Positions 4,058 to 52,190 of a DNA stretch of 64,000 bases are shown piece after piece. The notes under the pieces were generated by a model. The model was not told the DNA's origin. It saw nothing but the letters and a program-made list of their open reading frames with translations, and did no database searches. Every line of letters begins with the position of its first letter. The first letter of the stretch is position 1. Location: assembly GCA_039630575.1 (NCBI GenBank), contig JBCNUW010000002.1:76668-140667 (forward strand). The letters run 5' to 3'. Made by a program: the position numbers and the translations under genes. This stretch comes from Candidatus Hydrothermales bacterium (GTDB lineage: Bacteria > Hydrothermota > Hydrothermia > Hydrothermales > JAJRUZ01).

Positions 4058-6784
4058 TTAACTTCTTCCTTCTATCTTCTCAATTCTTACTGCGCATGCC
4101 TTAAATTCAGGAATCCTTGCTACTGGATCTAAGATAGGATTTGTTAATATATTTGCATTTGTCTCTTTAAAATGAAAAGATATAAAAACAACTCCTTTTT
4201 TTGGTCTATCAGAAACTCTTGCATTTATTTCTATACTCCCTCTTCTACTTTTTACCCTTATAAGTTCCCCATCCTTTATATTCAATCTTTCAGCATCCTC
4301 TCTTGATATTTCTACATAATTTTTTGGTACAAAGGATTCAAGCGTTTTCACTCTTTTAGTTTCACTTCTTCCATGATAATGATAAAGAATTCTTCCTGTT
4401 GTTAGGATAAACGGATATTCTTCACAGGGCAATTCTTCTGACTCTATATATTCCACAGGGCTAAATATTGCTTTACCACTTGGTGTTTTAAATTTACCTC
4501 CCTCATAAAGTATTTCAGTTCCAGGATGATTTTCTGAAGGACAGGGCCATTGAATTCCGCCTCTTTCAAGTCTTTTATAGGTAATCCCTGCATAGGAAGG
4601 TGCAACCCTTCTTATCTCTTCCATAATTTCAAGAGGATTTTTATATTCCATTTTGTATCCCATTGCTTTGGCAATTAAAGATAAAATTTCCCAATCGTAT
4701 TTTGTTCCTTCTGGTTTTTCCCTTGCAGGTCTTATTAGTTGAACTCTTCTTTCAGTATTTGTAAATGTTCCATCCTTTTCATAAGCAGATGCAGCGGGAA
4801 GTATTACATGAGCAAGTTCTGCTGTCTCTGAAAGAAATATTTCCTGAACTACAATAAATTCAAGTTTTTTCAAAGCTTTTTCTAAAGTATTTAAATCTGG
4901 ATGTGTCATTAAAGGATTCCCACCCATAACATACATAGCTTTAATTTTTCCTTTTGAAATATAATGAGTAAGTTCTGAAACAAATATTCCAGGACTTGTA
5001 GGTAATTTAACATTCCATTCTTTTTCAAATTTCTCTATAACTAACTGATCTGTTATTCTTTGATTGCCAGGTAAATAAGTAGGTAGAGCTCCCATATCAC
5101 AGGCACCTTGAACATTTGCCTGTCCCCGCAGTGGCATAATTCCATTACCCTTACTTCCTATATGTCCTGTTAAAAGTGTAAGGTTTGCAATACTTAAAAC
5201 AGCATCTGTTCCTGTTGCATGCTGTGTTATTCCCATTGTATAGAAAATCATTGCTTTTTCAGCACTTCCATAGATTTCTGCTGCTTTTTCTATTAAATCT
5301 TTATCAACACCAGTAATTTTTGAAACAAGCTCAAGATCATACTTTGGAATAACTTTTAAGAATTCTTCAAAACCTTCTGTATTTTCTTCTATAAATTTTT
5401 TATTTACATATCCTTTATCTATTATCACTTTCATTATTCCATTTAAAAGTGCTACATCTGTTCCCGGATAATGTTGGATGTATATATCTGCATATTCAGC
5501 AAGGTTTATTCTTCTTGGGTCACATACAATAAGTTTTGCTCCATCCTTTTTATGCTTTTTAACTAATTGGGCAATAACAGGATGTGTTTCTGTCATATTT
5601 GAGCCTATCACAAACATAACCTCTGTATTTTTAATATCTTCAATAGGGTTTGTTGCAGCACCTGCACCGAGCACTTTACTAAGGGCAGCAACACTTGGTG
5701 CATGACATAATCTCGCACAGTTATCAATATTATTTGTTCCAATTACTGCACGAGCAAATTTCTGTAAAACATAATTATCTTCATTTGTGCATCTTGAAGA
5801 ACTAAGGAATGTTATTGAATCAGGACCATATCTTTCCTTAATTTCCTTTAATCTTTTTGCAACATAATTTATAGCCTCTTCCCATTCTATCTCTTTAAAA
5901 ATTCCATTTTCTTTTATAAGTGGCTTTGTTAATCTTTCGTTACTATTTGCATATTCAAATCCGTATCTACCTTTAACACAGAGCCTACCTTTATTAACTG
6001 GTGAATCTTCTTTTCCTTTAGCCATAACAATATTATTATTTTCATCAGTATAAAGAATAACTTCGCATCCCACACCGCAATAAGCACAAACTGTTTCTGT
6101 TTTTTTAAAGTGAAAAATTTTCCCTTTTCTTATCCTTGTTTTTTCAATTAAAGCACCTGTTGGGCAAGCTTGAACACATATCCCACAGAACTCGCACTCA
6201 GTATCTTCAATTGGTAATTCAAAAGGTGTATTTATTTTAGTTTTATAACCTCTACCTACAACGCTTATGGTATTAACTACCGCCATATTCTTACAAGCAT
6301 TTATGCACCTTCTACATAGGATACATTTTTCAGGATAAAATTTTATGAATGAATTTATCTCCCATGCTTTTGTTTCTTTATAAAAGATTTTTACTTTTTC
6401 AAAAAATCTACTATTTGAAATACTATATTTATAAGCAAGATCCTGTAAAAGGCAATCACCATCAGCCTCACAGGTTATACATTCGGGTAAATGGATTGAC
6501 AAAATAAATTCAAGGTTCATTTTTCTTACTTTATGAATTTTTTCACTATCTGTAATTATTTCCATTCCATCTTTTATTTCAGTTATACAGGCTCTTTGGA
6601 GACTTTTAAATCCTTTTATTTCAACAACACATATTCCACAACTTCCTTCTTCTGAAATTTCTTTTAAAAAGCAGAGTGTAGGAATAAAAATCCCTATTTT
6701 TTTACAAGCATCTACTATTTTTATGCCTTGAGGAAAAAGATATTCTTTACCATTTATCTTTACATTTATATATTTTTCATTCAT
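4058..6784 (-). CDS. fdhA: Formate dehydrogenase alpha subunit, molybdopterin-dependent, Cys-type (FdhA/FdsA-like)
   Basis: N-terminal 2Fe-2S (CGICVVEI). Several 4Fe-4S motifs (CITCEADGDC, CILCRRCINAC, CEFCGICVQACP). CAYCGVGC start of the molybdopterin oxidoreductase domain. RLCVKGRYGF at the Sec/Cys active-site position with no in-frame TGA. C-terminal molybdopterin dinucleotide-binding domain. 908 aa. Confidence 0.8.
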   Translation of the reverse strand: MNEKYINVKINGKEYLFPQGIKIVDACKKIGIFIPTLCFLKEISEEGSCGICVVEIKGFKSLQRACITEIKDGMEIITDSEKIHKVRKMNLEFILSIHLPECITCEADGDCLLQDLAYKYSISNSRFFEKVKIFYKETKAWEINSFIKFYPEKCILCRRCINACKNMAVVNTISVVGRGYKTKINTPFELPIEDTECEFCGICVQACPTGALIEKTRIRKGKIFHFKKTETVCAYCGVGCEVILYTDENNNIVMAKGKEDSPVNKGRLCVKGRYGFEYANSNERLTKPLIKENGIFKEIEWEEAINYVAKRLKEIKERYGPDSITFLSSSRCTNEDNYVLQKFARAVIGTNNIDNCARLCHAPSVAALSKVLGAGAATNPIEDIKNTEVMFVIGSNMTETHPVIAQLVKKHKKDGAKLIVCDPRRINLAEYADIYIQHYPGTDVALLNGIMKVIIDKGYVNKKFIEENTEGFEEFLKVIPKYDLELVSKITGVDKDLIEKAAEIYGSAEKAMIFYTMGITQHATGTDAVLSIANLTLLTGHIGSKGNGIMPLRGQANVQGACDMGALPTYLPGNQRITDQLVIEKFEKEWNVKLPTSPGIFVSELTHYISKGKIKAMYVMGGNPLMTHPDLNTLEKALKKLEFIVVQEIFLSETAELAHVILPAASAYEKDGTFTNTERRVQLIRPAREKPEGTKYDWEILSLIAKAMGYKMEYKNPLEIMEEIRRVAPSYAGITYKRLERGGIQWPCPSENHPGTEILYEGGKFKTPSGKAIFSPVEYIESEELPCEEYPFILTTGRILYHYHGRSETKRVKTLESFVPKNYVEISREDAERLNIKDGELIRVKSRRGSIEINARVSDRPKKGVVFISFHFKETNANILTNPILDPVARIPEFKACAVRIEKIEGRS

Positions 6785-8459
6785 GTTTTAAAGGGCATTT
6801 ATTTTCTTTTATATGAAATTCCCATTCTTCTTTAAATTCTTTAATAATATCTTTGATTACTTTTAAAGAGTTTTGACCAAGAGGGCAAAATGAAGAAAGT
6901 TCCATAGTTTCTGCTATTTCAAATAATATGTTAATGTCTTTTCTTTTCCCTTTTATTATATTTTTTATGATTTTTGACGCCTCATAAGTCCCAATTAAGC
7001 AAGGGATACACTTACCACAACTTTCCTCCATAAAAAATTCAATTATGTTCTCTGAAATACAAACTGAACACCTTTTATCATTTATTGCAATTATTGCTCC
7101 TGAACCAAAGGAAAGATTGGCTCTTGATAAAGATTCATAATCCATTTTTATATTAAGATAGGATGGTAATAAAAGATTTCCGGAAAGTCCACCAAGAATT
7201 AAAAATTTTAAATTTCCATCTTTTATACCACCTCCAATTTCTTTTATCACATACTCAAGAGAAGTTCCAAAAGGAATTTCACAAACTCCTTTAAAGTTTA
7301 AATCCCCTGAAAGACTTAATAGTATGCTTCCGTGATTTTTGTAAAAATCTGCTCCTTTTAAAATAATAATAGGTATATTTGCAAAGGTCTCAACATTGTT
7401 TATAAGAGTTGGTTTTCCAAAGAGTCCTTTTTCTGATGGATAGGGAGGTTTTCTTCTTGGTTCACCTCTTTTACCTTCTATTGACTCCATCAAAGCTGTT
7501 TCCTCTCCACATACATAACTTCCTCCACCTTTTATAATTTCAATATCAAAAGAAAAGTTGCTTCCATAGATATTTTTACCGAGAAATCCCTTTTCTTTTG
7601 CTTCATCTATTGCATTTTTTAATATTTTTAAACCACTCTCATATTCTCCTCTAATATAAATAAATCCTTTCTCTGCATCAACTGCATATCCTGCAATTAT
7701 CATCCCTTCAATAACTGAATGAGGATCATTTTCAATTAAAACTCTATCCTTAAATGTTCCAGGTTCTCCCTCATCGGCATTACATATAACAAATTTTGGT
7801 CTCTCTTTTTCCTTTTTTACAAATTCCCATTTTAATCCTGTTTTAAACCCTGCACCTCCTCTTCCTCTTAAATCTGCTTTTTTTATCTCTTCTATTATAG
7901 TTTCTCCTTCTCTTTTTAATGCTATTTCAAGTGCTTTATAACCTTCTCTTTTTAAATAATCTTCAATACTCAAAGGATTTATTTCGTAAACATTTCTTAA
8001 AATAAGTTTTCCATAAGGAGCAGAGATTGGAATCTTCAAAGGCATAGGCTCTTTTTCCTTAAATTCTTTAATTAAATAAGGTATTTTTTCACAAGTTACT
8101 TTTGGTATAAGAACATCATTTATCATAATTGAAGGAGAAAGAGAGCAGGCGCCTAAACAACTTGTGTATTCAAGGGTAAATTCGCCATCAGGTGTTGTGT
8201 TGCCAATTTCAATTTTAAGTAACTCCTTTAATTTTGAAATTATTTTATCCTTTCCTTCTAAGTGGCAGGAAAGGCTTTTACATACTCTTATAATATTTTT
8301 TCCTTTTGGTTTTGTATGAAATAAACTGTAGAAAGATAAAAACTCATAAAGGCTTGCTAATTTTTCTTTCCTTTCTTTTGCTATGATTTTTGCTTTTTCT
8401 TTTTCTACATATCCTTTTTCTTCATGAATTCTATTTATTAAAAATTTATTATCATCCAT
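6777..8459 (-). CDS. NuoE-NuoF fusion (24 kDa + 51 kDa NADH dehydrogenase-like subunit; FdsG/FdsB-like diaphorase)
   Basis: N-terminal thioredoxin-like 2Fe-2S segment (RVCKSLSCHLEG...CLGACSLSP). RGGAGFKTGLKW FMN/NADH site. C-terminal CGKCIPC 4Fe-4S. Overlaps fdhA by 8 nt. Confidence 0.8.
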   Translation of the reverse strand: MDDNKFLINRIHEEKGYVEKEKAKIIAKERKEKLASLYEFLSFYSLFHTKPKGKNIIRVCKSLSCHLEGKDKIISKLKELLKIEIGNTTPDGEFTLEYTSCLGACSLSPSIMINDVLIPKVTCEKIPYLIKEFKEKEPMPLKIPISAPYGKLILRNVYEINPLSIEDYLKREGYKALEIALKREGETIIEEIKKADLRGRGGAGFKTGLKWEFVKKEKERPKFVICNADEGEPGTFKDRVLIENDPHSVIEGMIIAGYAVDAEKGFIYIRGEYESGLKILKNAIDEAKEKGFLGKNIYGSNFSFDIEIIKGGGSYVCGEETALMESIEGKRGEPRRKPPYPSEKGLFGKPTLINNVETFANIPIIILKGADFYKNHGSILLSLSGDLNFKGVCEIPFGTSLEYVIKEIGGGIKDGNLKFLILGGLSGNLLLPSYLNIKMDYESLSRANLSFGSGAIIAINDKRCSVCISENIIEFFMEESCGKCIPCLIGTYEASKIIKNIIKGKRKDINILFEIAETMELSSFCPLGQNSLKVIKDIIKEFKEEWEFHIKENKCPLKHE

Positions 8460-20853: not shown

Positions 20854-20973
<120 letters not shown>

Positions 20974-35836: not shown

Positions 35837-36350
35837 TAATTTTTTTAAAATGCTATTTTTATTATGGATTTGAACCGAAATTTAATATAATTATAAAAGT
35901 TAAAAAGAAAAAAATCAAATAATTTTATAATTTTATAACATTTTAGACTGATTAAAATATTACTTTAAAGGTTCGTAATGTATAATTCCTTAAACATTTA
36001 AAACTTTTTTAAAGAACATGATAAATTAACATTCACAATCTTACTTTGTAATAAATAAACAAAAACAAATTTTTCCTAATATGAATCTACAGATTACTTT
36101 CTCAACTCTTACATAAAACTTTCTTTGGATTTAATTAGATTATGATCATTAAAAACTATGATCTATTTTCATACAAAGTTTACAAGGTAACATCTTAAAC
36201 TCATCTCATCTAACTTTTTTTACTTTCCTATCTTTGTCGGAGTTCTATCAGCGATTTTTACACTTCAGAGTTCGAATAAAATATCTAAAATAAGTAAGTT
36301 CCCTTTAACTTTTGACTTACATCATTCTTTTATTATAAACATCAAAACAA

Positions 36351-36379
36351 TTGAAAATTCTGAAAATTTCATTTATAAT
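36351..36379 (+). promoter_or_regulatory. Sigma70-type promoter of tRNA-Thr (TTGAAA-17 nt-TATAAT)
   Basis: TTGAAA at 36351-36356, a 17-nt spacer, TATAAT at 36374-36379. The tRNA 5' end is at 36388. Confidence 0.6.
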
Positions 36380-36387
36380 AGAAAACT

Positions 36388-36460
36388 GCCCGCGTAGCTC
36401 AGGCGGTAGAGCACTTCCTTGGTAAGGAAGAGGCCGCCGGTTCGAGTCCGGCCGCGGGCT
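36388..36460 (+). tRNA. tRNA-Thr (anticodon GGT), no encoded CCA
   Basis: Cloverleaf: acceptor GCCCGCG/CGCGGGC. D-arm GCTC-AGGCGGTA-GAGC. Anticodon arm CTTCC-TTGGTAA-GGAAG, giving GGT. T-arm GCCGG-TTCGAGT-CCGGC. Discriminator T. Confidence 0.85.
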
Positions 36461-36473
36461 TTTAAATTAAAAA

Positions 36474-37559
36474 TTGGAACTGAAAACTCCCAAGAAAAGC
36501 TTTAGAAAAGCTCTTGAAGTACTTAAAAAAGGAGGAGTTATAGCTATACCAACTGACACAGTTTCAGGACTTGTAACACCATATTGGTCTCAAGAGGGAG
36601 TTAAAAGAATCTTTTCTATTAAAAAAAGAGAAAGTGAAAAAACTCTTGGTCTTTTTATCTCTCAATCAAAAGAACTTAGACTCTTTACAAAAAACATAAC
36701 AGAAACAAGAAAAAGATTGATACATAACTTGTGGCCAGGATCTATATCTCTTTTATTTAAAGCAAAAGAAAATTTACCTGAATATATTGTCCATAGAGAA
36801 AAAAAAACAGTATCTGTTAGAATCCCAAATCATCCTGTTCCACTTTCCCTTTGCAGTTTAGCAGGACCTCTTGTACAAACTTCAGTTAATATCTCTGGTC
36901 ATAAAGAAATAAATGATTATGAAGAGATTGAAAAAAAATTTGGTAAATATGTTGATTTTGTTTATCCTCAAAACTCTTATGGAAATTCTGCCTCAACAAT
37001 TCTTGACGTATCCAAATATCCCTTTTTGTTATTACGAAAAGGACCTATAGGTATAACTCAGATTGAAAGTTTGCTTTTAAAAAAAATAAAAATTTCAAAA
37101 TCCATCAAAACAAACATCCTATTTGTTTGCAGTGGAAACACATGTAGATCTCCAATGGCTATGGGTATAATGTATTCACTTTTAAAACAAAATCTAAGGG
37201 ATTTGGTAAATATTAAATCAGCAGGAGTTGACACAATAGATGGACTTTTAATTGCTGAAAATACACTTAAAGTACTTGAGAAGGTATACAACTTAGATCT
37301 CAGTTACTATAGAACTAGGAAACTAAAAAAAGATGATCTTGAATGGGCAGACTTCATTTATGTTATGGAAAAAAAACACTTAAGAGAAATTCAAAAAATG
37401 GGATTTTATGAAAAAGCAAAACTGTTAAACCTCATAGATGGATTTAAAGATATACCTGACCCATTCGGTAAGGACTATAGCTACTATCTTTATGTATCAA
37501 AACTAATTGAAAAAAATATAAAATTGATTGTTAAAGAAATAGAGTATAGATACTCATGA
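36474..37559 (+). CDS. Fusion protein: L-threonylcarbamoyladenylate synthase (YrdC/TsaC domain) + low-molecular-weight protein phosphatase (LMW-PTP/arginine phosphatase-like)
   Basis: N-terminal GGVIAIPTDTVSGLV (YrdC PTDTVYGL motif). C-terminal ILFVCSGNTCRSPMAMGIMY (CX5R P-loop of LMW-PTP) with a downstream DP motif. Starts with TTG directly after the tRNA. Stop TGA overlaps the purM ATG. Confidence 0.7.
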   Translation: MELKTPKKSFRKALEVLKKGGVIAIPTDTVSGLVTPYWSQEGVKRIFSIKKRESEKTLGLFISQSKELRLFTKNITETRKRLIHNLWPGSISLLFKAKENLPEYIVHREKKTVSVRIPNHPVPLSLCSLAGPLVQTSVNISGHKEINDYEEIEKKFGKYVDFVYPQNSYGNSASTILDVSKYPFLLLRKGPIGITQIESLLLKKIKISKSIKTNILFVCSGNTCRSPMAMGIMYSLLKQNLRDLVNIKSAGVDTIDGLLIAENTLKVLEKVYNLDLSYYRTRKLKKDDLEWADFIYVMEKKHLREIQKMGFYEKAKLLNLIDGFKDIPDPFGKDYSYYLYVSKLIEKNIKLIVKEIEYRYS

Positions 37560-38521
37560 GGTATAAAGAAGCTGGGGTAGATCTTAAAAAAGCCGAAAGT
37601 GTTTCAAAAATTTTTAAAATAATAACAAAACAAAAGGAAAGATTTTCAGGTATATTTGATCTTGGAGACTATTTTGTTGCTGCTACATGTGATGGAGTAG
37701 GTACTAAAACTCAAGTGGCAAGAATTGCCCGTAAATTTGAAGTTCTTGGTGAAGATATAGTGAATCACTCGGTAAATGATCTTTTATGTCAAGGTGCAAA
37801 ACCTATTTTTTTCCTAGATTATATTGCTTCATCAAGCCTTGATTTGAGAGTTGTAAGAAAAATAGCAAAAGGAATATTAAAAGCCCTTAGAGAGAACGGA
37901 AATATAGCACTTTTAGGTGGAGAAACTGCAGAAATGCCAGACATATATAATAAAAACGAGTGGGACATAGTTGGTTTTTGTGTTGGGCTTTTAAAAAAAG
38001 AGAATCTATTACCAAAAAAAATCAAAAAGGGAGATTTACTTTTAGGCTTACCATCAAATGGACTTCATACAAATGGGTACTCACTTGCACGTAAAGTTCT
38101 TTTAAAAAAATATGATTTAAATAAAAAATTTGAAGGAAAAACACTTAAAAGTCTTTTACTTAAGCCACATAAAAGTTATTTCAAGATACTTTATCCTCTT
38201 ATAGAAAAAAAACTTATAAAGGGTTTAGCTCATATAACTGGAGGTGGTATAGAAGGAAATCTAAAGAGAATTTTGCCAAATAGCTTAGGTTTTGATATAG
38301 ATATAAGAGATGTAGAAAAACCCATAATTTTTGAGATAATTCAAAAAGAAGGAAATGTTCCTTATGATGAAATGCTAAAGGTATTCAATTTAGGAATAGG
38401 AATGATTGTAGTTATAGATGTAAAGGAATTAGAAAATATAAAAAATTTTTTGATAAAAAAAGGGGAAAAATTTTACATAATTGGTGAAATAACAAAAGGG
38501 AGAAAAAGAGTTATATTTTGA
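37556..38521 (+). CDS. purM: Phosphoribosylformylglycinamidine cyclo-ligase (AIR synthetase)
   Basis: YKEAGVDLKKAE...ATCDGVGTKTQVA...GGETAEMPD, typical of PurM. Confidence 0.85.
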   Translation: MRYKEAGVDLKKAESVSKIFKIITKQKERFSGIFDLGDYFVAATCDGVGTKTQVARIARKFEVLGEDIVNHSVNDLLCQGAKPIFFLDYIASSSLDLRVVRKIAKGILKALRENGNIALLGGETAEMPDIYNKNEWDIVGFCVGLLKKENLLPKKIKKGDLLLGLPSNGLHTNGYSLARKVLLKKYDLNKKFEGKTLKSLLLKPHKSYFKILYPLIEKKLIKGLAHITGGGIEGNLKRILPNSLGFDIDIRDVEKPIIFEIIQKEGNVPYDEMLKVFNLGIGMIVVIDVKELENIKNFLIKKGEKFYIIGEITKGRKRVIF

Positions 38522-38545: not shown

Positions 38546-40969
38546 ATGACTGAGAGGCTGATTAATGCACCTATAGAAGAGGAAATGTCAACAAGTTATA
38601 TCGACTATGCGATGAGTGTAATTGTAGGTAGAGCTCTTCCTGATGTGAGAGATGGATTAAAACCTGTTCACAGAAGAATTTTATACTCAATGTACGAATC
38701 AGGTCTTTTACCAACAAAACCGTTCAAAAAAAGCGCAACAGTAGTTGGTGATGTACTTGGTAAATTTCATCCCCATGGGGATATGGCTGTTTACGATGCT
38801 CTTGTAAGAATGGCACAAGACTTCTCACTTAGATATCCACTGATTGAAGGTCAGGGAAATTTCGGTTCTATTGATGGAGATCCTCCAGCAGCATATAGAT
38901 ACACTGAAGTAAGGCTTTCAAAGATAGCTCTGGAAATGCTTAAAGATTTAGATAAAAACACTGTTGATTTTGTGCCAAATTTCGATGGGAGGTTAAAAGA
39001 ACCTGTTGTTTTACCATCACTTTTACCAAACTTGCTTGTAAATGGCTCAACAGGAATAGCTGTAGGAATGTCAACTAATATACCACCCCATAACTTATCT
39101 GAAACCGTTGATGCACTTATATATTTAATCGACAACCCAGATTGTAAAGACGAAGATCTATTCGAAATTATAAAAGGACCCGACTTTCCTACAGGAGGTT
39201 TGATATTAGGTAAAAAGGGGATACATGATTACTTTAAGATTGGAAGGGGACAAATAGTAATTAGAGGTAAATACTATATTGAAGAAAAGGGCAGAAAGAA
39301 AATTATATTTACTGAAATTCCTTATCTTGTAAACAAAGCAAGCTTACTTGAAAGAATTGCAGATCTTATAAGAGATAAAAAAATAGAAGGTATACAGGAT
39401 TTAAGGGATGAATCAGATAGAGATGGTTTAAGAATTGTAATTGAACTTAAAAAGAACATTTCTGAGAAACTTATCTTAAATCAACTTTTTAAATACACAC
39501 AGCTTCAGGATAGATTTAATGTAATTATGTTGAGCCTTGTTGAAAATGAACCAAAAGTTTTATCTTTAAGAGAAATTTTAAACTACTATCTTAGACACAG
39601 AGAGGAGGTTACAAGAAGGAAAACAGAATTTTTACTTAAGAAAGCTCAGGAAAGAGCCCATATTTTAGATGGTCTTAAAGTTGCTTTAAAAAACATCGAT
39701 GAAGTTATCAAAATAATTAAACACTCAAAAGATCCAAAAGAAGCAGGTGAAAAGTTGAGAAAAGTTTATAAACTTACAGAATTACAGACTCAGGCAATAT
39801 TAGAAATGAGACTACAAACTCTTACAAAACTCGAAATTTCAAAAATTGAGGAAGAGTATGAGAAAATAATTAAGGATATTCAGAAGTATAAAAGAATTTT
39901 AGAGGAAAGAAAAATTCTCTTTGAGGAAATAAAAAAAGAATTAATTGAACTAAAGGAAAAACACGGAGATAAAAGAAAAACAGAGATCTTAGATCAGGAA
40001 CCAGAGGAAATTGACATCGAAAGTTTAATCAAAAAAGAAAAAATTCTTATTTTACTTTCAAAAAATGGTTATATAAAAAGGATACAAGGTTCATATTTAA
40101 AAACAAAGTCAAGGGGAACTCAAGGTCAAAAAGGAGTTCTGTTAGATGAGGATGACTTTCCGGAGGATGTTTTTTATTCTTTTTCCCATGATTATGTGCT
40201 TTTTGTATCAAATAAAGGAAAAGTTTACTCTTTAAAAGCCTATGAAATTCCTGAGAGTGGGTTAAGAGGTAAGGGAAAACCTGTAAATACAATTCTTAAT
40301 TTACCAGATGGAGAGAAAATTGTCGATATGATCCCAATATCAGAATTCAAAAAGGGTGTTTATCTTTTTCTTATAACAAGAAAAGGTATAATTAAAAAAA
40401 CTGACATTGAACTTTTTAAAAATGCTGGAAAAAGAGGTATCACAGGTCAAATCCTAAAGGAAAAAGATGAGACAATAAAAGGTTTACTTGTAACAGATGA
40501 AGATGAAGTTATTCTCTTAAAGGAAAACGGTCTTGCATCGAGAATAATATCAAAAGCAGTAAGACCCATGGGAAGGTCGAGTTATGGAATAATAGGAATA
40601 AAAACCAGCGATGCCGAATGTATATCAGGAGCTGTAATAAAGGAAAATACCACCATTCTTGTTGTAACAGAAAAGGGTTACGGTAAAAGATTTAAACCAG
40701 AGGAAATTCCAGCAAAAGGAAGAGGTGCTAAGGGTGTAATTGTACAAAAGGTAAATGAAAAAACTGGAAAAGCTATTTGGTTAAAAGCCTTTGATGATAA
40801 AGATCATCTTGTATTGCTAACAAGTTCATCAAAACTATTAAGACAAAAAGTAGAAGAAATTCCTTTAATTTCAAGAGCAACAAGAGGTGTAAGGCTTATA
40901 AAAGTAGAGAAGGAAGATAAGGTTGTTGGTTGTGCAAAAATTCCTTATGAGGAGGAAATGGATGTTTAA
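38546..40969 (+). CDS. gyrA: DNA gyrase subunit A (type IIA topoisomerase A subunit; ParC not formally excluded)
   Basis: [29 protein letters not shown], active-site region [28 protein letters not shown]...EVRLSKIA. Degenerate GyrA-box-like [11 protein letters not shown]-terminal beta-pinwheel repeats. AAGGAGG RBS. Confidence 0.8.
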
Positions 40970-41579
40970 CATAATTACTTTTTTTCTATTATCGATTAGC
41001 CCAATTAGAGGTGCTCTTTTATCTTTAATTGTTCCTGGTCTTGGACTTAGGCAAATGGGCGAAGATAGGTTGTTTTTAAGTATGGTAGCTGGAGAATTGA
41101 CGCTATTTTCTTTCTACATTTATGATTTTAAAACTAAAGGAGAAATAAGAGAAAGTTACAAGAAATTTGCCTATGAAAATGCTTCAGCTTTCCCTGGAAC
41201 CGATGATGAAAGGTATTGGAGTGCTGTTGAAAATTATTATAGTTATGAATTCTATTACGAATATCTTTTAAGAGAAGCAAGATCTTTGTATCCTGATGAA
41301 CCTTTAAGGTGGGAAAATTATGCTAATGCCAATTCTGTTGCATACAAATGGGCTTGGAAAGATACAACTTCATGGGATGCATTTCTGCATAAAAGAGAAA
41401 AAGAAAGAAGAATAGAATCGAGAATGAAAATTCTTCAGGGATTTGTAATTACCTACCACTTATTTTCTGCGATATACACTTTTGTCTATATTAAGAAAAA
41501 GAAAATAAACTTTCAAATAGAGGGAGAAATCGAGCCATCACAAGATAAGGCCTACCTAAAATTTACTTTCAAGTTCTAA
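40962..41579 (+). CDS. Hypothetical membrane/periplasmic protein
   Basis: N-terminal hydrophobic segment [29 protein letters not shown]. No known motif. Start chosen at the Met overlapping the gyrA stop by 8 nt instead of the longer ORF-track start. Confidence 0.4.
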
Positions 41580-43379: not shown

Positions 43380-45005
43380 TCAAAATTCAATAGGTTCAAA
43401 TTTTTTTCCTTTAATTTTATAAAACTTTATATTTTCTATACTTTTTCCAAAGAGGTAAAATTTGAAAGATCCTTTAAAATATGTTAAATTTTTTAAAAAA
43501 TTTATTAAAGCGAATGATCCTGTTATGTTTTTTTCAAGGGTATAATTTAAAATGCTTCCAATATCGTAGCCAATATAGGCAGTTTCACTTGGGTAATCAC
43601 CATATTTTGATTTAAATTCAAGAATAAACTTTTCAGATACCGAATTATCCCATATTCCGGCACTGGCAAAAATTACCCTTTCTTCAACATATCTATTAGA
43701 TTTGATGGCAAAATCTTCTGTTGTAAACTTTCCAGTTGTCAATATTTTTGACTTTAATCCCTTAAAAACAATCTGAGAAGAAAGAGAGAGAAGTGACTCT
43801 TCTGTTCCTGATGGGAAAACAATAACATCAGGTCCAAGTGTATCCTGAAAAAAATTAATAATTTGATCAATTTTACTCTGAAAATCGAGTGAATCAATTG
43901 AAAAAAAAAGATAAAAGACTTTATTCCTTTTCTCAAATAAGTCTATTAATAAAGAAGTAATACTCTCCCCTTCTTCAGTAATGGGCAAAAGAGCACATAT
44001 TTTATTTATATTGTTAGGAATAATATACCTTTCTATAATCGCTTTTATCTCAAGATAAAGTGAATTTGAAAGAGTTATTATATTTTCACCGTATTCACAG
44101 GCTCTTATATAAGAAAGTGCAGGAACTATAAATACTTTATCCCTTTTTTTTGCAAAATAAGGAAGAGCCAAATAAAAACTTTTGCTCAAAAGAGGCCCTA
44201 TCAGAATCTTAAAATCATAATTATAACCAATATGATCTTCGAGTAGTTTATATGTATATAATGGATCCTCTCTTGTATCAAAAACATTATAGTTTTTGTA
44301 TTTAAAGGATAGTTCAAAACCTCTTAAAAATTCTTTTCCCAATAAACTGTCTGGTCCAGATAGGGGAAGATATATAAAAATTTCTTTTAATGTTCTCGAC
44401 TTAAAAAAAGGATCCAATCTTTTTTTTGTGTAAATTTCTTCAATTTCTTTAGTTTTTTCATGTTCAGGAACCTCTTCTTTCAAAATTTCAAAAATTTCTT
44501 CTTGAGCCTTTACATCTCCCTCTTGTCTTGCCTTTTCAAAGGCTATAAAAAGGATATTTGGATAAATTTCAAGATCTTTAAGCTTACTAATATTTTTTAA
44601 TATTTCTCTGAGGGACAATTTTTTCGAAAGTTCAAGGATTTTATTCTCAGCTTCCTTAAAATAAGGAGAATCTCTAAATTTTAAAATAGCTAAATAACTT
44701 TCGAAGGCTCTCACTAAAAAATTAATTTTTTCATAACTTTTTGCAAGCATATATAGAACTTGCACTCTATACTCGCTCTCATGGTAATTACTAAGGAATA
44801 TATTAGAATAAACAATTACAGAATCACTTTTTTCAAGAGAATATAAAACATAGATAAAAAGATAATCAATCTTTTCACTCTTTTCACCTTTTCTAATCAA
44901 ATTTCTTATTTCTTTTTCTGCTTCTTTCATTCTATTTGCCTTGATCAAATCAATAATTTTAAACTCACTTTGATTTAAAAGTAATAACAATAAAAAAGGT
45001 ATCAT
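43380..45005 (-). CDS. LpoA/LppC-like protein: N-terminal TPR-like helical domain + C-terminal periplasmic-binding-protein type I-like domain
   Basis: Signal-like N-terminus. Helical TPR-like repeats in aa 20-200. C-terminal ~330 aa has a LivJ-like alpha/beta pattern (inferred from architecture, not a sharp motif). Confidence 0.35.
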   Translation of the reverse strand: MIPFLLLLLLNQSEFKIIDLIKANRMKEAEKEIRNLIRKGEKSEKIDYLFIYVLYSLEKSDSVIVYSNIFLSNYHESEYRVQVLYMLAKSYEKINFLVRAFESYLAILKFRDSPYFKEAENKILELSKKLSLREILKNISKLKDLEIYPNILFIAFEKARQEGDVKAQEEIFEILKEEVPEHEKTKEIEEIYTKKRLDPFFKSRTLKEIFIYLPLSGPDSLLGKEFLRGFELSFKYKNYNVFDTREDPLYTYKLLEDHIGYNYDFKILIGPLLSKSFYLALPYFAKKRDKVFIVPALSYIRACEYGENIITLSNSLYLEIKAIIERYIIPNNINKICALLPITEEGESITSLLIDLFEKRNKVFYLFFSIDSLDFQSKIDQIINFFQDTLGPDVIVFPSGTEESLLSLSSQIVFKGLKSKILTTGKFTTEDFAIKSNRYVEERVIFASAGIWDNSVSEKFILEFKSKYGDYPSETAYIGYDIGSILNYTLEKNITGSFALINFLKNLTYFKGSFKFYLFGKSIENIKFYKIKGKKFEPIEF

Positions 45006-45016
45006 TTAAATTAAAA

Positions 45017-45047
45017 GCCCCTCCCAAGAAGAAATAAAGGGAGGGGC
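45017..45047 (-). terminator. Rho-independent terminator (9-bp GC stem) after the BNR/T9SS gene
   Basis: GCCCCTCCC-aagaagaaataaa-GGGAGGGGC is a perfect 9-bp stem. On the minus-strand transcript the stem is followed by TTTTAATTT. Confidence 0.7.
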
Positions 45048-45078
45048 CTTTTATAAATCTCTAAACTTCTGCTATTTT

Positions 45079-46803
45079 CTATTCAGTAACAACAAGTTTT
45101 AAATTACCCTGGATATCTCCCTTATATTTCAAGAAGTATATTCCAGATTTGAGGTTAGAAACCTTTATTTCGTTATTTCCTTCTTTAACGGATACGGTTT
45201 TAGATGTAATTCTCTTTCCTGATACATCAAAAATATCAAATACCATTTTTCCATTTAAAGGTGATACAAATCTGATAGCTCCTTTATCAAAAACATTTCC
45301 ATTAAAGGTTAGCTTGTTCAAAACTAATTTATCCTTTGAGCTTTCGAAAATACTCGTAACTGGAATATAACCTGTTAAAATATAAGTAGGTACTGTTCCG
45401 CCAAGTGCATAAGTGTTATAATGAATATCAAGTCCCGCATTTGCACCATCCCATGCTCTTGGAACATTGAAGAGAAGCCATAATTTATAATCATTTGAAG
45501 GAGTAAATACATGCTTTATTGTGTGAACTTTATGTTCAATCTTATCATCTGTAGGTTGATTTGCCTCGTCTCTTGTAATGTTATATGGCGCAGACCAAGT
45601 AGCTCCACCATCAAGTGAATATTTTACATAGACATCAGTCCACCCATACCTACGATTAGGAACATAATCAATTGTATGGTATGCAACATAAGTAACGAAG
45701 AGTATGTTGCGAACATGATCAATTGTAAGTTCAATATTTGCAAAAAATGTTAAATCATCAGGGTCTATAATTGTATAGGTTGCTGTAGGTGTAACAAGAT
45801 AAGCACCATTCCCAGAGACAAATGTATCAGTCCCAAAAACTATCGGATTTGTAAAGTAACATGTAGTTGTCAAAAGTGCCATAGGTGTTGTTGAATTAAG
45901 AAGGGCAAAATCCCAGTAATTTACATACCAAAGATAATCAACAATATAATCTATTCCTTGAAATCTAAAAGTATCAACTGGGACATTAAAATAAAGGGGA
46001 ATACTTGTCCATGTAGCTCCATCGTCATTAGATACTTTAACAGTATCTGGTCCTACAAGAGCTGCAAGTGTCCCACCCAAATAATCCATTAGCCATACAT
46101 CTCCAGGGTGGTTTGGGAAAAGTGTAGCTGGAGGGTCAGGATCAATAAAAGCAAGTCTCCACCACCAATGAGTGAAGTAGTTATTATCTTGACCTACAAG
46201 AAAATTAACAAAATTTCCCATATCGTTTGAGGCATTTCCAAAACTCCTATATCCTACAAATCCAGGAGTCTGAATGAAGTAGGTATAAATATTTCCTTGT
46301 GGTAAAGCACCATCAGATGGAACTGTAGAAATAGCACCTTCATAAGGTGTTCTAACTGTAGAGTATGTTAGAATAAAAGTGTCACTGTTACCCATCCATG
46401 GACCTACATTCGGATATCTTCCGGCTCCATCTATATTGTATGGCCATATTCTTGTCCAAGTGTTCCCACCATCTTGAGAAAAAACAAGAGCTAAACGTCC
46501 TGTTCCAGGATAAGCAGGGTTATCAGATAATCTTCTATAAGTGAAAAATACACAGGATTGATCAGGTGATGTATTTATTGGTTTTGGTGCTGTATACAAA
46601 GTTGAATACTGATTGGGCATAGTATCTATATAAGCAATAGGTATTGTAGGATACGTCGGAAGTGCGGAAGGATAGATATCTGAAGTATTTTTAAAATCCT
46701 CCCGATCAATTATTAAATGATCCTTTACAATAGGTCTTATGGTTCCTGCAAACAGAAATCCTACAAGAAAAACAGTCAGTAGTACTTTTTTATTTTTACT
46801 CAT
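45079..46803 (-). CDS. Secreted BNR/Asp-box repeat protein with T9SS C-terminal sorting domain
   Basis: Signal peptide. Asp-boxes SQDGGNTWT, SNDDGATWT, SLDGGATWS. C-terminus ...VFDIFDVSGKRI...SGIYFLKYKGDIQGNLKLVVTE (Por_Secre_tail). Confidence 0.7.
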   Translation of the reverse strand: MSKNKKVLLTVFLVGFLFAGTIRPIVKDHLIIDREDFKNTSDIYPSALPTYPTIPIAYIDTMPNQYSTLYTAPKPINTSPDQSCVFFTYRRLSDNPAYPGTGRLALVFSQDGGNTWTRIWPYNIDGAGRYPNVGPWMGNSDTFILTYSTVRTPYEGAISTVPSDGALPQGNIYTYFIQTPGFVGYRSFGNASNDMGNFVNFLVGQDNNYFTHWWWRLAFIDPDPPATLFPNHPGDVWLMDYLGGTLAALVGPDTVKVSNDDGATWTSIPLYFNVPVDTFRFQGIDYIVDYLWYVNYWDFALLNSTTPMALLTTTCYFTNPIVFGTDTFVSGNGAYLVTPTATYTIIDPDDLTFFANIELTIDHVRNILFVTYVAYHTIDYVPNRRYGWTDVYVKYSLDGGATWSAPYNITRDEANQPTDDKIEHKVHTIKHVFTPSNDYKLWLLFNVPRAWDGANAGLDIHYNTYALGGTVPTYILTGYIPVTSIFESSKDKLVLNKLTFNGNVFDKGAIRFVSPLNGKMVFDIFDVSGKRITSKTVSVKEGNNEIKVSNLKSGIYFLKYKGDIQGNLKLVVTE

Positions 46804-46858
46804 TTAAAACCTCCTTTTTTTTAGGGAATTGAACCCTTCTTTGTTTTTTATATTATAT

Positions 46859-51173: not shown

Positions 51174-51186
51174 CTTTTAACCTCCT

Positions 51187-52176: not shown

Positions 52177-52190
52177 TTAAAACCTCCCTT

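What the first reader, a model, noticed from the sequence alone, without database searches (positions are those of the whole stretch)
36474..37559. Fusion of TsaC/YrdC (t6A threonylcarbamoyl-AMP synthase) with an LMW protein phosphatase, directly after tRNA-Thr
One ORF carries an N-terminal YrdC domain (PTDTVSGLV) and a C-terminal LMW-PTP domain (CSGNTCRSP P-loop). In Bacillus subtilis the homologues ywlC (tsaC) and ywlE (protein arginine phosphatase) are separate adjacent genes, so this looks like a gene fusion of a conserved neighbourhood. The gene starts with TTG 14 nt after a tRNA-Thr and is translationally coupled (ATGA) to purM. The fusion is an observation; any function is speculative.
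Basis: partly seen in the sequence, partly recalled or inferred. Interest (0 to 1): 0.5.

Follow-up and report, generated by a model that had tools for sequence, protein, structure and literature searches.

The report
TsaC–YwlE-like phosphatase fusion gene
One gene really does encode a tRNA-modification enzyme (TsaC, which makes the precursor of t6A) joined to a small YwlE-like protein phosphatase, but the same fusion occurs in hundreds of other bacteria and is filed in databases simply as "threonylcarbamoyl-AMP synthase", so it is a genuine, unstudied hint of a functional link and not a rarity.

Summary
ORF 36474..37559 (+, 361 aa, TTG start) has a full-length YrdC/TsaC domain (PF01300, 2.4e-44; TIGR00057 above its cutoff) and a full-length LMW-PTP domain (PF01451, 6.5e-22). 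It starts 13 nt after tRNA-Thr(GGU) and overlaps purM by ATGA.

It is not an assembly artefact. The identical protein is in NCBI (Candidatus Hydrothermales MAG). Well over 200 fused cluster representatives exist. 86 of 87 fetched loci have a single-frame match across the junction.

Both active sites are conserved: K50/R52/S137/N139 in TsaC, and C219/R225/D329 in the phosphatase. The N-domain has the TsaC-type signature Thr136. The P-loop CSGNTCRS carries the Thr that makes B. subtilis YwlE a phosphoarginine phosphatase.

The fusion is the joined form of the conserved tsaC-ywlE-rpiB-glyA neighbourhood; rpiB lies downstream in 61 of 88 loci. A second architecture, Sua5 + Sua5_C + LMWPc, is common in Bacillota.

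The tRNA-Thr linkage holds only in close relatives (46-75% identity), where the tRNA promoter probably drives the operon.

Verdict: a real bifunctional protein and one more member of a populated but unstudied architecture. Functional coupling to t6A (TsaD is a YwlE-dependent pArg target in B. subtilis) is plausible but untested. Interest is modest.

The parts
36351..36379 (+). Sigma-70-like promoter (TTGAAA-17-TATAAT, 11 of 12) ending 9 nt before the tRNA. It is the probable promoter of the tRNA-Thr / fusion / purM / gyrA transcript.
   Evidence: A TATAAT box 7-20 nt upstream of the tRNA is present in all five related contexts. Function is inferred, not shown.
36388..36460 (+). tRNA-Thr (anticodon GGU), with U36-A37-A38 and no encoded CCA. 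It belongs to the ANN-decoding class, the class that is modified to t6A37.
   Evidence: ARAGORN. Rfam RF00005, 71.1 bits. Sequence read. It sits in the same position in L081, L082, L083/84 and L085/86.
36461..36473 (+). 13-nt A/T-rich spacer (TTTAAATTAAAAA) between the tRNA 3' end and the start codon. It has no Shine-Dalgarno sequence and no terminator.
   Evidence: The spacer is 9-17 nt in relatives. It is predicted to be unstructured.
36474..37559 (+). Fusion ORF, 361 aa, TTG start, TGA stop: TsaC-type TC-AMP synthase plus a YwlE-like LMW phosphatase.
   Evidence: Identical to NCBI protein P0001, annotated as L-threonylcarbamoyladenylate synthase from a Candidatus Hydrothermales MAG.
36489..37073 (+). 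TsaC/YrdC domain (aa 6-200). Catalytic residues: K50 (36621-36623), R52 (36627-36629), R116, and T136-S137-V138-N139 (36879-36890).
   Evidence: TIGR00057 covers aa 6-200 and PF01300 covers aa 15-190. Conservation in 120 homologues: K50 and R52 0.97, T136 0.93, S137 and N139 0.99. Fold match to E. coli YrdC 1hru, TM-score (target-normalised) 0.82.
37074..37109 (+). Short interdomain linker (aa 201-212).
   Evidence: This is the gap between the domain matches. AF2 pLDDT is about 96 across it and pTM for the whole chain is 0.89.
37110..37556 (+). LMW-PTP / YwlE-like phosphatase domain (aa 213-361). P-loop C219-S-G-N-T223-C-R225-S226 lies at 37128-37151. The general-acid D329-P330 lies at 37458-37463.
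   Evidence: PF01451 covers aa 215-349. Residue alignment to YwlE structures 4pic and 1zgg. C219, N222, R225, S226, D329 and P330 are invariant in 120 homologues. Fold TM-score (target-normalised) 0.83-0.90 to 4egs, 4pic and 4kk3.
37556..38521 (+). purM (AIR synthetase), whose start overlaps the fusion stop (ATGA).
   Evidence: AIRS and AIRS_C domains in the syntenic genes of L081, L082, L083 and L085.
38546..40969 (+). gyrA, the next gene of the same-strand block. It has a strong AAGGAGG Shine-Dalgarno sequence.
   Evidence: Synteny.

Best explanation
The ORF encodes a genuine two-domain, bifunctional protein.

**N-terminal domain (aa ~6-200).** This is a TsaC-type (single-domain type, not Sua5-type) L-threonylcarbamoyl-AMP synthase. 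It condenses threonine, bicarbonate/CO2 and ATP into TC-AMP. TsaD/TsaB/TsaE then use TC-AMP to make t6A37 on ANN-decoding tRNAs.

**C-terminal domain (aa ~213-361).** This is a catalytically intact LMW-PTP-fold phosphatase of the YwlE type. Cys219 is the nucleophile, Arg225 binds phosphate and Asp329 is the general acid. Thr223 sits at the position that confers phosphoarginine specificity in YwlE.

**Origin.** The protein is the fused form of two neighbouring genes of an ancient, widely conserved operon (tsaC - ywlE - rpiB - glyA). These genes often overlap by a few bases, so one frameshift or stop-codon loss joins them. Such joining happened at least twice: TsaC-PTP in WOR-3, Omnitrophota, Planctomycetota and others, and Sua5-PTP in Bacillota. 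The result has been kept under purifying selection on both active sites.

**Shown here:** the domain identities, intact catalytic residues, the reality and recurrence of the fusion, and the operon context.

**Inferred:** the two enzyme activities, and phosphoarginine rather than phosphotyrosine specificity.

**Consequence of the fusion.** The minimal reading is obligatory 1:1 co-expression. A possible further role is bringing the phosphatase to the t6A machinery.

**Transcription in this lineage.** The gene has no Shine-Dalgarno sequence. It is most likely transcribed from the promoter of the tRNA-Thr(GGU) gene 13 nt upstream, as a tRNA-mRNA co-transcript with purM and gyrA, and released by tRNA 3' processing. 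This is inferred.
For: **Domains**
- PF01300 at 2.4e-44 and PF01451 at 6.5e-22.
- TIGR00057 equivalog at 154.5 bits, above the 123.2 cutoff.
- Closest solved relatives are Sua5/TsaC for the N-domain and 4egs, 4pic and 1zgg (YwlE) for the C-domain.

**Reality of the fusion**
- An identical protein is in NCBI.
- All 120 best homologues, down to 28% identity and from independent assemblies, carry both Pfam domains.
- The exhaustive search of the library of representative proteins (one per 50%-identity cluster) returned a best-150 list in which most entries are single matches running colinearly across both domains.
- 86 of 87 fetched loci are single-frame across the junction.

**Active sites**
- K50 and R52 0.97; S137 and N139 0.99; C219, N222, R225, S226, D329 and P330 1.00.

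**TsaC type**
- There is no Sua5_C hit.
- The signature before S-x-N is Thr in 177 and Ser in 13 of 223 two-domain fusions. It is Pro in all 30 three-domain Sua5-PTP proteins. This matches the TsaC/Sua5 rule in PMC10321239.

**YwlE type**
- The P-loop CSGNTCRS aligns with YwlE CTGNTCRS.
- Thr at P-loop position 5 is the pArg determinant (PMC7772506).
- That position is T or S in 181 of 223 two-domain fusions and T in 30 of 30 three-domain fusions.

**Operon origin**
- rpiB lies downstream on the same strand in 61 of 88 loci.
- Caldithrix L062 has separate genes overlapping by 14 nt.
- One 90% cluster contains both 502-aa fused members and 346 + 155-aa split members.

**Second architecture**
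-.

**At least two fusion events**
- PTP domains of Sua5-PTP proteins group with standalone YwlE. Those of TsaC-PTP proteins group separately.

**Compact protein**
- AF2 pLDDT 94.3 and pTM 0.89.

**Transcription**
- Promoter-like site with 11 of 12 matches directly before the tRNA, and no terminator between tRNA and ORF.
- A TATAAT box, a 9-17 nt spacer and a conserved start position in 5 contexts, although the upstream genes differ.
Against: - No activity of either domain was measured.
- Phosphoarginine specificity rests on one residue. About 16% of two-domain fusions have L, I or V there, which is the phosphotyrosine type.
- I could not determine whether these genomes encode an arginine kinase (McsB). 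I also could not determine whether they have a second TsaC/Sua5 copy.
- Co-transcription with the tRNA is inferred from consensus matches and spacing only. In this window rpiB is not next to the fusion.
- Taxon labels of MAGs may be imprecise.
Confidence: 0.85

Rival explanations
1. The fusion reflects a direct functional coupling. The phosphatase domain is delivered by TsaC to the t6A machinery. There it removes phosphoarginine (or another phospho-mark) from TsaD, TsaB, TsaE or TsaC itself. This protects the machinery from degradation or inactivation and ties t6A output to a stress or nutrient phospho-signal.
For: - In B. subtilis, TsaD is phosphorylated on Arg282. The ywlE-disruption phenotype depends on that residue, and McsB/YwlE control ClpCP degradation of TsaD (PMC7546277).
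- The same two functions were fused at least twice independently.
- They are operon neighbours across many phyla.
- Both active sites are strictly conserved in the fusions.
- The predicted two-domain packing is rigid, with pTM 0.89.
Against: - Other neighbours in the same tightly packed operon also fuse: purE-tsaC (AIRC + YrdC proteins) and rpiB-glyA (L015). Fusion alone may therefore only reflect adjacency.
- No arginine kinase was identified in these lineages.
- No interaction data exist.
- The TsaD-YwlE link has been demonstrated in one organism only.
Confidence: 0.25
2. The LMW-PTP domain is a working part of TC-AMP synthesis. Either it substitutes for the SUA5 domain of Sua5 enzymes by positioning or gating the active site, or it handles a small phospho-compound. 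Candidates are PPi or stray TC-AMP and other acyl-adenylates.
For: - It occupies the C-terminal position where Sua5 has its Rossmann-like SUA5 domain.
- Foldseek aligns about 330 columns to Sua5 structures.
- P-loops bind phosphate-type anions, and PPi is a TsaC product.
Against: - The superposition on Sua5 is poor (rmsd 8-13 A over about 330 columns, TM-score normalised by query length about 0.52), so only the TsaC half matches in space.
- The N-domain carries the TsaC-type Thr136, which marks enzymes that work without a SUA5 domain.
- In Bacillota the phosphatase is added after an intact SUA5 domain, not in place of it.
- The full protein-phosphatase triad, including the Asp general acid, is invariant.
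Confidence: 0.06
3. The tRNA-Thr directly upstream is a cis-acting regulatory element. TsaC binds unmodified tRNA-Thr embedded in its own transcript. This modulates processing or translation of the start codon 13 nt downstream, giving feedback from t6A status to TsaC synthesis.
For: - E. coli YrdC preferentially binds tRNA-Thr lacking only t6A (PMC2685093).
- The tRNA-to-start spacing of 9-17 nt without a Shine-Dalgarno sequence is kept in five contexts, even where the upstream genes differ.
- The tRNA has U36-A37.
Against: - The linkage is absent from all 80 more distant fusion loci, so it is a clade-specific synteny.
- tRNA-mRNA co-transcripts are known elsewhere without such regulation. E. 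coli thrU-tyrU-glyT-thrT-tufB is an example (my own knowledge).
- No alternative structure is predicted that would sequester the start (z -1.15).
- In L087 another ORF lies between the tRNA cluster and the fusion gene.
Confidence: 0.08
4. The single ORF is an artefact, produced by a sequencing frameshift or assembly chimera that joined two separate genes.
For: - Split versions exist in nature: L062 and the 346 + 155-aa members of one cluster. A single indel can therefore interconvert the two states.
Against: - The same uninterrupted architecture, with the same short linker, is found in more than 250 independent proteins from NCBI, JGI, ENA and Logan assemblies.
- It is also found in 86 of 87 loci.
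- It includes the four closest relatives at 46-75% identity.
Confidence: 0.01
5. The C-terminal domain is a thioredoxin-coupled arsenate reductase (ArsC of the LMW-PTP fold), not a protein phosphatase.
For: - There are weak NCBIfam matches to arsC families: NF010053 at 31.7 bits and TIGR02691 at 27.5 bits.
Against: - Those scores are far below the cutoffs of 215 and 174.
- The domain has only the two P-loop cysteines, C219 and C224. It has no cysteine in the region where ArsC carries its two downstream redox cysteines. This comes from the sequence; the ArsC requirement is my own knowledge.
- The conserved DP general-acid motif is the phosphatase type.
Confidence: 0.01

Closest known systems
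E. coli TsaC (YrdC, PDB 1hru), the single-domain L-threonylcarbamoyl-AMP synthase
   Same: - Same fold: TM-score (target-normalised) 0.82-0.84, rmsd about 2.1 A.
- Same K-x-R and S-x-N catalytic motifs at almost the same residue numbers.
- Same TsaC-type Thr before S-x-N.
- No SUA5 domain.
   Different: - It carries a 150-residue phosphatase domain at the C-terminus.
- Sequence identity is only about 29%.
YwlE protein arginine phosphatase of B. subtilis and G. stearothermophilus (PDB 1zgg, 4kk3, 4pic), and the T. tengcongensis LMW-PTP 4egs
   Same: - Best sequence and fold matches of the C-domain.
- The P-loop is C-[ST]-G-N-T-C-R-S, including the Thr11 equivalent.
- D-P-F-G general-acid loop.
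- Gene neighbourhood with tsaC and rpiB (the B. subtilis gene order ywlC-ywlD-ywlE-ywlF-ywlG-glyA is from my own knowledge).
   Different: - Here it is covalently joined to TsaC.
- Identity is about 26-31%.
- The substrate is unknown and the partner kinase is unidentified.
Three-domain Sua5 + Sua5_C + LMWPc proteins of Bacillota/Clostridia (for example Sedimentibacter hydroxybenzoicus DSM 7310, P0386; Saccharofermentanales, P0244)
   Same: - The same two functions are fused in the same order.
- The YwlE-type P-loop is CTGNTCRS in 30 of 30.
- They are also annotated only as threonylcarbamoyl-AMP synthase.
   Different: - They keep the SUA5 domain and the Sua5-type PSAN signature.
- Their PTP domains group with standalone Firmicute YwlE and not with the TsaC-PTP group. 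This indicates a separate fusion event.
Other fusions of the TsaC-like domain: HypF, TobZ, Pandoravirus TsaN (TsaD-TsaC-SUA5-TcdA)
   Same: - A YrdC-like adenylate-forming domain is joined to another enzyme (PMC10484737; PMC10321239).
   Different: - In those proteins the partner is a Kae1/TsaD-like transferase that consumes the adenylate.
- Here the partner is a phosphatase with no known role in the reaction.

Membership tests
TsaC/Sua5 L-threonylcarbamoyl-AMP synthase (COG0009; TIGR00057; PF01300) | Full-length YrdC-like domain scoring above the curated equivalog cutoff | tested here: met
   TIGR00057 scores 154.5 bits against a cutoff of 123.2, covering aa 6-200. PF01300 covers profile positions 1-178 of 178, E 2.4e-44.
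TsaC/Sua5 L-threonylcarbamoyl-AMP synthase (COG0009; TIGR00057; PF01300) | Catalytic K-x-R ... S-x-N tetrad (E. coli K50, R52, S139, N141) | tested here: met
   K50, R52, S137 and N139 are present. They are 97-99% conserved in 120 homologues.
TsaC/Sua5 L-threonylcarbamoyl-AMP synthase (COG0009; TIGR00057; PF01300) | TC-AMP synthesis and support of t6A formation | not testable with these tools
   This needs an enzyme assay or complementation.
TsaC subtype (as opposed to Sua5) | No SUA5 C-terminal domain, and Thr/Ser rather than Pro immediately before S-x-N (PMC10321239) | tested here: met
   There is no PF03481 hit. The motif is T136-S-V-N. The residue is T or S in 190 of 223 two-domain fusions and P in 30 of 30 Sua5-PTP proteins.
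Low-molecular-weight protein phosphatase (PF01451, LMWPc) | Domain match above the gathering score and an LMW-PTP fold | tested here: met
   78.7 bits against a cutoff of 23.2. The AF2 model matches 4egs, 4pic and 2wmy with TM-score (target-normalised) 0.83-0.90.
Low-molecular-weight protein phosphatase (PF01451, LMWPc) | C-X5-R-(S/T) P-loop near the domain N-terminus and a D-P general-acid loop | tested here: met
   C219-SGNTC-R225-S226 and D329-P330 align with YwlE C7, R13 and D118. They are invariant in 120 homologues.
YwlE-type protein arginine phosphatase | Thr at P-loop position 5 (YwlE Thr11), the residue shown to switch pArg/pTyr preference | tested here: met
   Thr223. The literature basis is PMC7772506, citing Fuhrmann 2013.
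YwlE-type protein arginine phosphatase | Phosphoarginine phosphatase activity | not testable with these tools
   This needs an assay with pArg substrates and a T223I mutant.
YwlE-type protein arginine phosphatase | Partner arginine kinase (McsB/McsA) in the same genome | tested here: inconclusive
   Only about 0.9 Mb of window plus loci could be searched. The query was a McsB sequence recalled from memory and not validated. It gave no hit.
Thioredoxin-coupled arsenate reductase (ArsC, LMW-PTP fold) | Score above the family cutoff and two additional redox cysteines downstream of the P-loop | tested here: not met
   31.7 and 27.5 bits against cutoffs of 215 and 174. There are no cysteines after C224 in the domain.
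Sua5 (TsaC2) two-domain enzymes | SUA5 C-terminal domain (PF03481) with a Pro-S-A-N signature | tested here: not met
   There is no PF03481 hit. The signature residue is Thr, not Pro.

The most novel reading that the evidence does not exclude
The repeated, independent welding of a YwlE-like phosphatase onto both TsaC and Sua5 may be a Rosetta-stone signal. On this reading, protein (arginine) dephosphorylation is an integral and so far unrecognised control layer of t6A tRNA modification in many phyla, including lineages with no known McsB system. The phosphatase domain would act on the t6A machinery (for example TsaD) while docked through TsaC. In the Hydrothermales clade, the substrate tRNA-Thr embedded in the gene's own transcript could add a feedback element.
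Probability: 0.2. Interest if true: 0.65.

Novelty: new member of a known kind. Interest (0 to 1): 0.35.

Why it matters
Automatic annotation names these proteins only "L-threonylcarbamoyladenylate synthase". A complete, catalytically intact phosphatase is therefore hidden in hundreds of genomes.

The searchable papers I checked do not mention this architecture. These include the dedicated TsaC/Sua5 family survey, the founding YrdC/Sua5 paper and the TsaN paper.

The fusion gives independent comparative support for a link between YwlE-type phosphatases and t6A synthesis. So far that link has been seen only genetically in B. subtilis, where TsaD Arg282 is phosphorylated. The fusion also offers a natural single-polypeptide system for testing the link.

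It is not a new kind of system. Both halves are ordinary members of well-known families, and the architecture is already abundant in databases.

Tried and rejected
**Explanations considered and rejected**
- **Frameshift or chimera artefact.** Rejected: 86 of 87 loci and more than 250 proteins carry the same uninterrupted architecture.
- **PTP domain as a substitute for the SUA5 domain.** Rejected on three grounds: the TsaC-type Thr136, the existence of Sua5 + Sua5_C + LMWPc proteins, and poor spatial superposition on Sua5.
- **Arsenate reductase.** Rejected: scores are far below the cutoffs and the redox cysteines are missing.
- **tRNA-Thr adjacency as a general feature of the fusion.** Rejected: none of the 80 distant loci has it. 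The only nearby tRNAs there are Lys(CTT) in L037 and Arg(TCT) in L034 and L035. It is conserved only in relatives of 46% identity or more.
- **An RNA structure that sequesters the start codon.** None was predicted.
- **An Rfam family in the 551-nt gap upstream or around the tRNA.** None was found.
- **A paralogue of either domain elsewhere in the window.** None was found.
- **The 218-aa ORF before the fusion in L087 as a relative of the 218-aa ORF after gyrA in the window.** They are unrelated.

**Dead ends**
- **Literature.** Seven searches and four papers gave no description of a TsaC/Sua5-LMW-PTP fusion.
- **McsB.** A tblastn search of window plus loci, using a McsB sequence recalled from memory, gave no hit. 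This is uninformative.
- **The afdb50 fold library** was not available.
- **Model coordinates** are not exposed, so the distance and orientation of the two active sites could not be measured.
Full report
**1. The observation**

The window contains ORF 36474..37559 on the + strand (361 aa, TTG start). A tRNA-Thr with anticodon GGT lies at 36388..36460 (+). It is the only tRNA in the window. Thirteen A/T-rich bases separate it from the start codon. The stop codon overlaps the ATG of the next ORF (37556..38521) as ATGA.

- Pfam finds a complete Sua5_yciO_yrdC domain (aa 15-190, E 2.4e-44) and a complete LMWPc domain (aa 215-349, E 6.5e-22).
- NCBIfam's equivalog model for L-threonylcarbamoyladenylate synthase (TIGR00057) scores 154.5 bits against a cutoff of 123.2.
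- Against solved structures, the N-half matches Sua5/TsaC proteins. The C-half matches LMW-PTPs, best of all the YwlE group: 4egs, 4pic and 1zgg.

**2. Is the fusion real?**

- The identical protein is deposited at NCBI as [quoted passage not shown].
- All 120 best homologues, down to 28% identity and from NCBI, JGI, ENA and Logan assemblies, carry both Pfam domains.
- An exhaustive HMMER search of 1.84 billion cluster representatives returned a best-150 list dominated by 330-390-aa proteins matched colinearly over residues ~10-355.
- A scan of one genome per species recovered 587 relatives of the P-loop motif. All of the best 80 cover both domains.
- By tblastn, 86 of 87 fetched loci have one HSP in one frame across the junction.

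The exception is informative. A Caldithrix MAG (L062) has tsaC (5944..6588) and the phosphatase gene (6575..7090) as separate genes that overlap by 14 nt in different frames. One 90%-identity cluster also holds both 502-aa fused members and 346 + 155-aa split members. A sequencing artefact is therefore excluded for the architecture as such. The likely precursor state, overlapping neighbour genes, is directly visible.

**3. Are both halves functional?**

Across 120 fused homologues, the conservation is as follows.

| Domain | Residues | Conservation |
|---|---|---|
| TsaC | K50, R52 | 97% |
| TsaC | R116, S137, N139 | 99% |
| Phosphatase | C219, N222, R225, S226, D329, P330 | 100% |

The residue-level alignment puts C219, R225 and D329 on C7, R13 and D118 of YwlE. 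An AlphaFold2 model built from 38 diverse fusions has mean pLDDT 94.3 and pTM 0.89, with high confidence through the ~12-residue linker. This indicates a compact two-domain protein. Foldseek finds no solved chain that contains both domains. The N-domain matches E. coli YrdC (TM-score, target-normalised, 0.82). The C-domain matches 4egs, 4pic and 4kk3 (0.83-0.90).

**4. What type is each half?**

*N-domain.* Pichard-Kostuch et al. 2023 (PMC10321239) report that TsaC enzymes carry Thr/Ser immediately before the S-x-N motif, whereas Sua5 enzymes carry Pro and depend on the SUA5 domain and linker. The window protein has T136-S-V-N and no Sua5_C domain. In a census of 253 fused proteins, the two-domain form has T or S in 190 of 223. 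The three-domain form has P in 30 of 30. The N-half is therefore a bona fide TsaC type that should work without an accessory domain.

*C-domain.* Thr at P-loop position 5 (YwlE Thr11) is the reported determinant of phosphoarginine over phosphotyrosine specificity (PMC7772506, citing Fuhrmann 2013). The window protein has Thr223 at that position (CSGNTCRS against YwlE CTGNTCRS). The position is T or S in 181 of 223 two-domain fusions and T in all 30 three-domain fusions. An arsenate-reductase reading fails. The scores are far below the cutoffs, and there are no cysteines beyond the P-loop.

**5. Where does the fusion come from?**

I clustered the neighbours of the fusion gene in 88 loci.

| Neighbour | Position | Loci |
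|---|---|---|
| rpiB (LacAB_rpiB) | downstream, same strand | 61 (fused to glyA/SHMT in L015) |
| purD | upstream | 24 |
| purE | upstream | 24 |
| purM | nearby | 21 |
| dCMP deaminase | nearby | 17 |
| nrdR | nearby | 17 |
| CCA-adding enzyme-like gene | nearby | 11 |

This is the B. subtilis ywlC(tsaC)-ywlD-ywlE-ywlF(rpiB)-ywlG-glyA arrangement (gene order from my own knowledge; tsaC = ywlC confirmed in PMC10221552).

The fusion is also recurrent. Proteins of 470-606 aa have YrdC + Sua5_C + LMWPc. 119 of the best 120 homologues of one of them share that architecture. These are mostly Bacillota/Clostridia and include the cultured Sedimentibacter hydroxybenzoicus DSM 7310.

A neighbour-joining tree of the phosphatase domains places the Sua5-PTP domains with standalone YwlE of Bacillus and Geobacillus and with 4egs. 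The TsaC-PTP domains form their own group, which includes the standalone Caldithrix protein. This suggests at least two fusion events. The tree is crude and has no bootstrap support.

By MAG labels, the two-domain form occurs in WOR-3, Omnitrophota (16 loci), Planctomycetota (the majority of the 80), Cloacimonadota, Aerophobetes, Verrucomicrobiota and a few others.

**6. The tRNA-Thr and purM context**

In the window and in four further independent contexts, tRNA-Thr(GGU) sits 9-17 nt before the start codon and purM-gyrA follow. These contexts are L081 (75% identity), L082 (58%), L083/84 (46%) and L085/86 (47%).

This holds even though the upstream genes differ: rpsL-rpsG in three contexts and an ABC/MacB efflux cluster in two. 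The tRNA and the fusion gene therefore travel together.

- All five contexts have a TATAAT box 7-20 nt upstream of the tRNA. In the window it is part of a TTGAAA-17-TATAAT site with 11 of 12 matches.
- There is no terminator between tRNA and ORF.
- The spacer has no Shine-Dalgarno sequence, although many genes of the window have a clear GGAGG.
- The start position is homologous in all five contexts, TTG or ATG.

The simplest reading is a tRNA-mRNA co-transcript in which tRNA 3' processing generates a short-leadered mRNA. This is inferred.

The tRNA has U36-A37-A38, so it is itself a t6A-class substrate. E. coli YrdC was reported to bind tRNA-Thr lacking t6A (PMC2685093). This makes an autoregulatory idea conceivable. 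Three results argue against it:

- none of the 80 more distant loci has a tRNA-Thr upstream;
- in L087 (38% identity) a Thr-Tyr-Gly-Thr tRNA cluster is separated from the fusion gene by another ORF;
- no start-sequestering structure is predicted.

I treat the adjacency as clade-specific synteny with a probable transcriptional role.

**7. How it most likely works**

*Shown:* two intact catalytic domains of known families in one polypeptide, derived from operon neighbours, recurrent and under selection.

*Inferred:*
- The N-domain makes TC-AMP for the TsaD/B/E transferase.
- The C-domain is a Cys-dependent phosphatase, probably with phosphoarginine preference.
- The minimal consequence of the fusion is obligatory equimolar co-expression.

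A stronger reading is that the phosphatase acts on the t6A machinery. It has one piece of outside support. In B. subtilis, TsaD is phosphorylated on Arg282, ywlE disruption lowers a TsaD-dependent readout, and R282K suppresses that effect. McsB/YwlE control ClpCP-mediated TsaD degradation (PMC7546277).

Against over-reading the fusion, the same compact operon also yields purE-tsaC (AIRC + YrdC) and rpiB-glyA fusions. Adjacency alone can therefore generate fusions. I could not establish whether the carrier genomes encode an arginine kinase (one search is uninformative).

**8. Comparison with what is known, and novelty**

Both halves pass the membership tests of their families: TsaC subtype, LMW-PTP, and the YwlE-type specificity residue. 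The enzymatic activities are untested.

The architecture is abundant in public databases and is consistently annotated only as threonylcarbamoyl-AMP synthase. I found no paper that mentions it in seven full-text searches. It is also absent from the TsaC/Sua5 family survey, the founding YrdC/Sua5 paper and the TsaN paper.

I therefore classify the window's gene as a new member of a known, populated but unstudied kind. Interest is modest at 0.35. It is useful as Rosetta-stone support for a YwlE-t6A connection and as an annotation gap. It is not surprising to a specialist who looks at domain-architecture tables.

Noticed in passing
P0221 (624 aa) and P0234 (488 aa); purE upstream of the fusion in 24 loci, e.g. 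L040 5408-5911: Proteins exist that fuse an AIRC (PurE/LarB-like) domain to the N-terminus of a YrdC/TsaC domain. purE, purD and purM are frequent neighbours of tsaC. In the window, purM overlaps the fusion gene by ATGA. This points to a recurrent purine-biosynthesis / tsaC linkage. Both PurE and TsaC handle CO2/bicarbonate chemistry.
   Followed up: partly
L015 7044-8723: A single ORF fuses rpiB (LacAB_rpiB, aa 3-140) to glyA (SHMT, aa 154-529), directly downstream of the TsaC-PTP gene in a Verrucomicrobiota MAG. It is another fusion of neighbours from the same operon.
   Followed up: partly
cluster of P0192 (P0268 and P0273 at 502 aa; P0270 at 346 aa plus P0269 at 155 aa on one 12.5-kb contig): Within one 90%-identity cluster, the Sua5-PTP protein occurs both fused and as two adjacent genes. 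This is either a real fused/split polymorphism or frameshift errors in some assemblies.
   Followed up: no
window 20856-20972 (+): A 5S rRNA gene (Rfam, 111.8 bits) with no 23S or 16S rRNA anywhere in the 64-kb window. It is apparently an unlinked 5S gene.
   Followed up: no
window 43383-54299 (-): A run of large ORFs has no Pfam match: 541, 294, 1147, 329 and 702 aa. The run is interrupted by a Por_Secre_tail (T9SS-sorting) protein at 45082-46803 and bounded on the far side by a TonB-dependent-receptor-like outer-membrane protein at 54318-57503. It may be an uncharacterised cell-surface gene cluster.
   Followed up: partly
window 35837-36387: A 551-nt non-coding gap lies between rpsL (-) and the tRNA-Thr promoter. 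It has no ORF of 25 aa or more and no Rfam match. The equivalent gap is only about 224 nt in L081 and about 147 nt in L082.
   Followed up: partly
window 40923-41579 (+); L081 9486-10103, L082 9534-10151, L083 9474-10088, L085 9476-10081: A 201-218-aa ORF without any Pfam match directly follows gyrA in all close relatives, so it is a conserved unknown gene. In the window it overlaps the end of gyrA by 47 nt as called.
   Followed up: no
window 326-4001 (-): A DUF2357 + PD-(D/E)XK (PDDEXK_7) protein (542 aa) overlaps a 699-aa ORF with no Pfam hit. The pair resembles a restriction/defence-type gene pair.
   Followed up: no
L087 3953-4320: A tRNA cluster Thr(TGT)-Tyr-Gly-Thr(GGT) lies upstream of the fusion gene in a 38%-identity relative. 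It has the same order as the E. coli thrU-tyrU-glyT-thrT cluster that precedes tufB (my own knowledge). This suggests that the lone tRNA-Thr(GGT) in the window is a remnant of that cluster; the window's tuf gene lies about 3.5 kb away on the other strand.
   Followed up: partly
P0003, P0004, P0007 (379-380 aa): Some close homologues are called 18-19 residues longer at the N-terminus than the window protein. Given the tRNA 9-17 nt upstream in relatives, these starts probably run into the tRNA gene and are miscalled.
   Followed up: no
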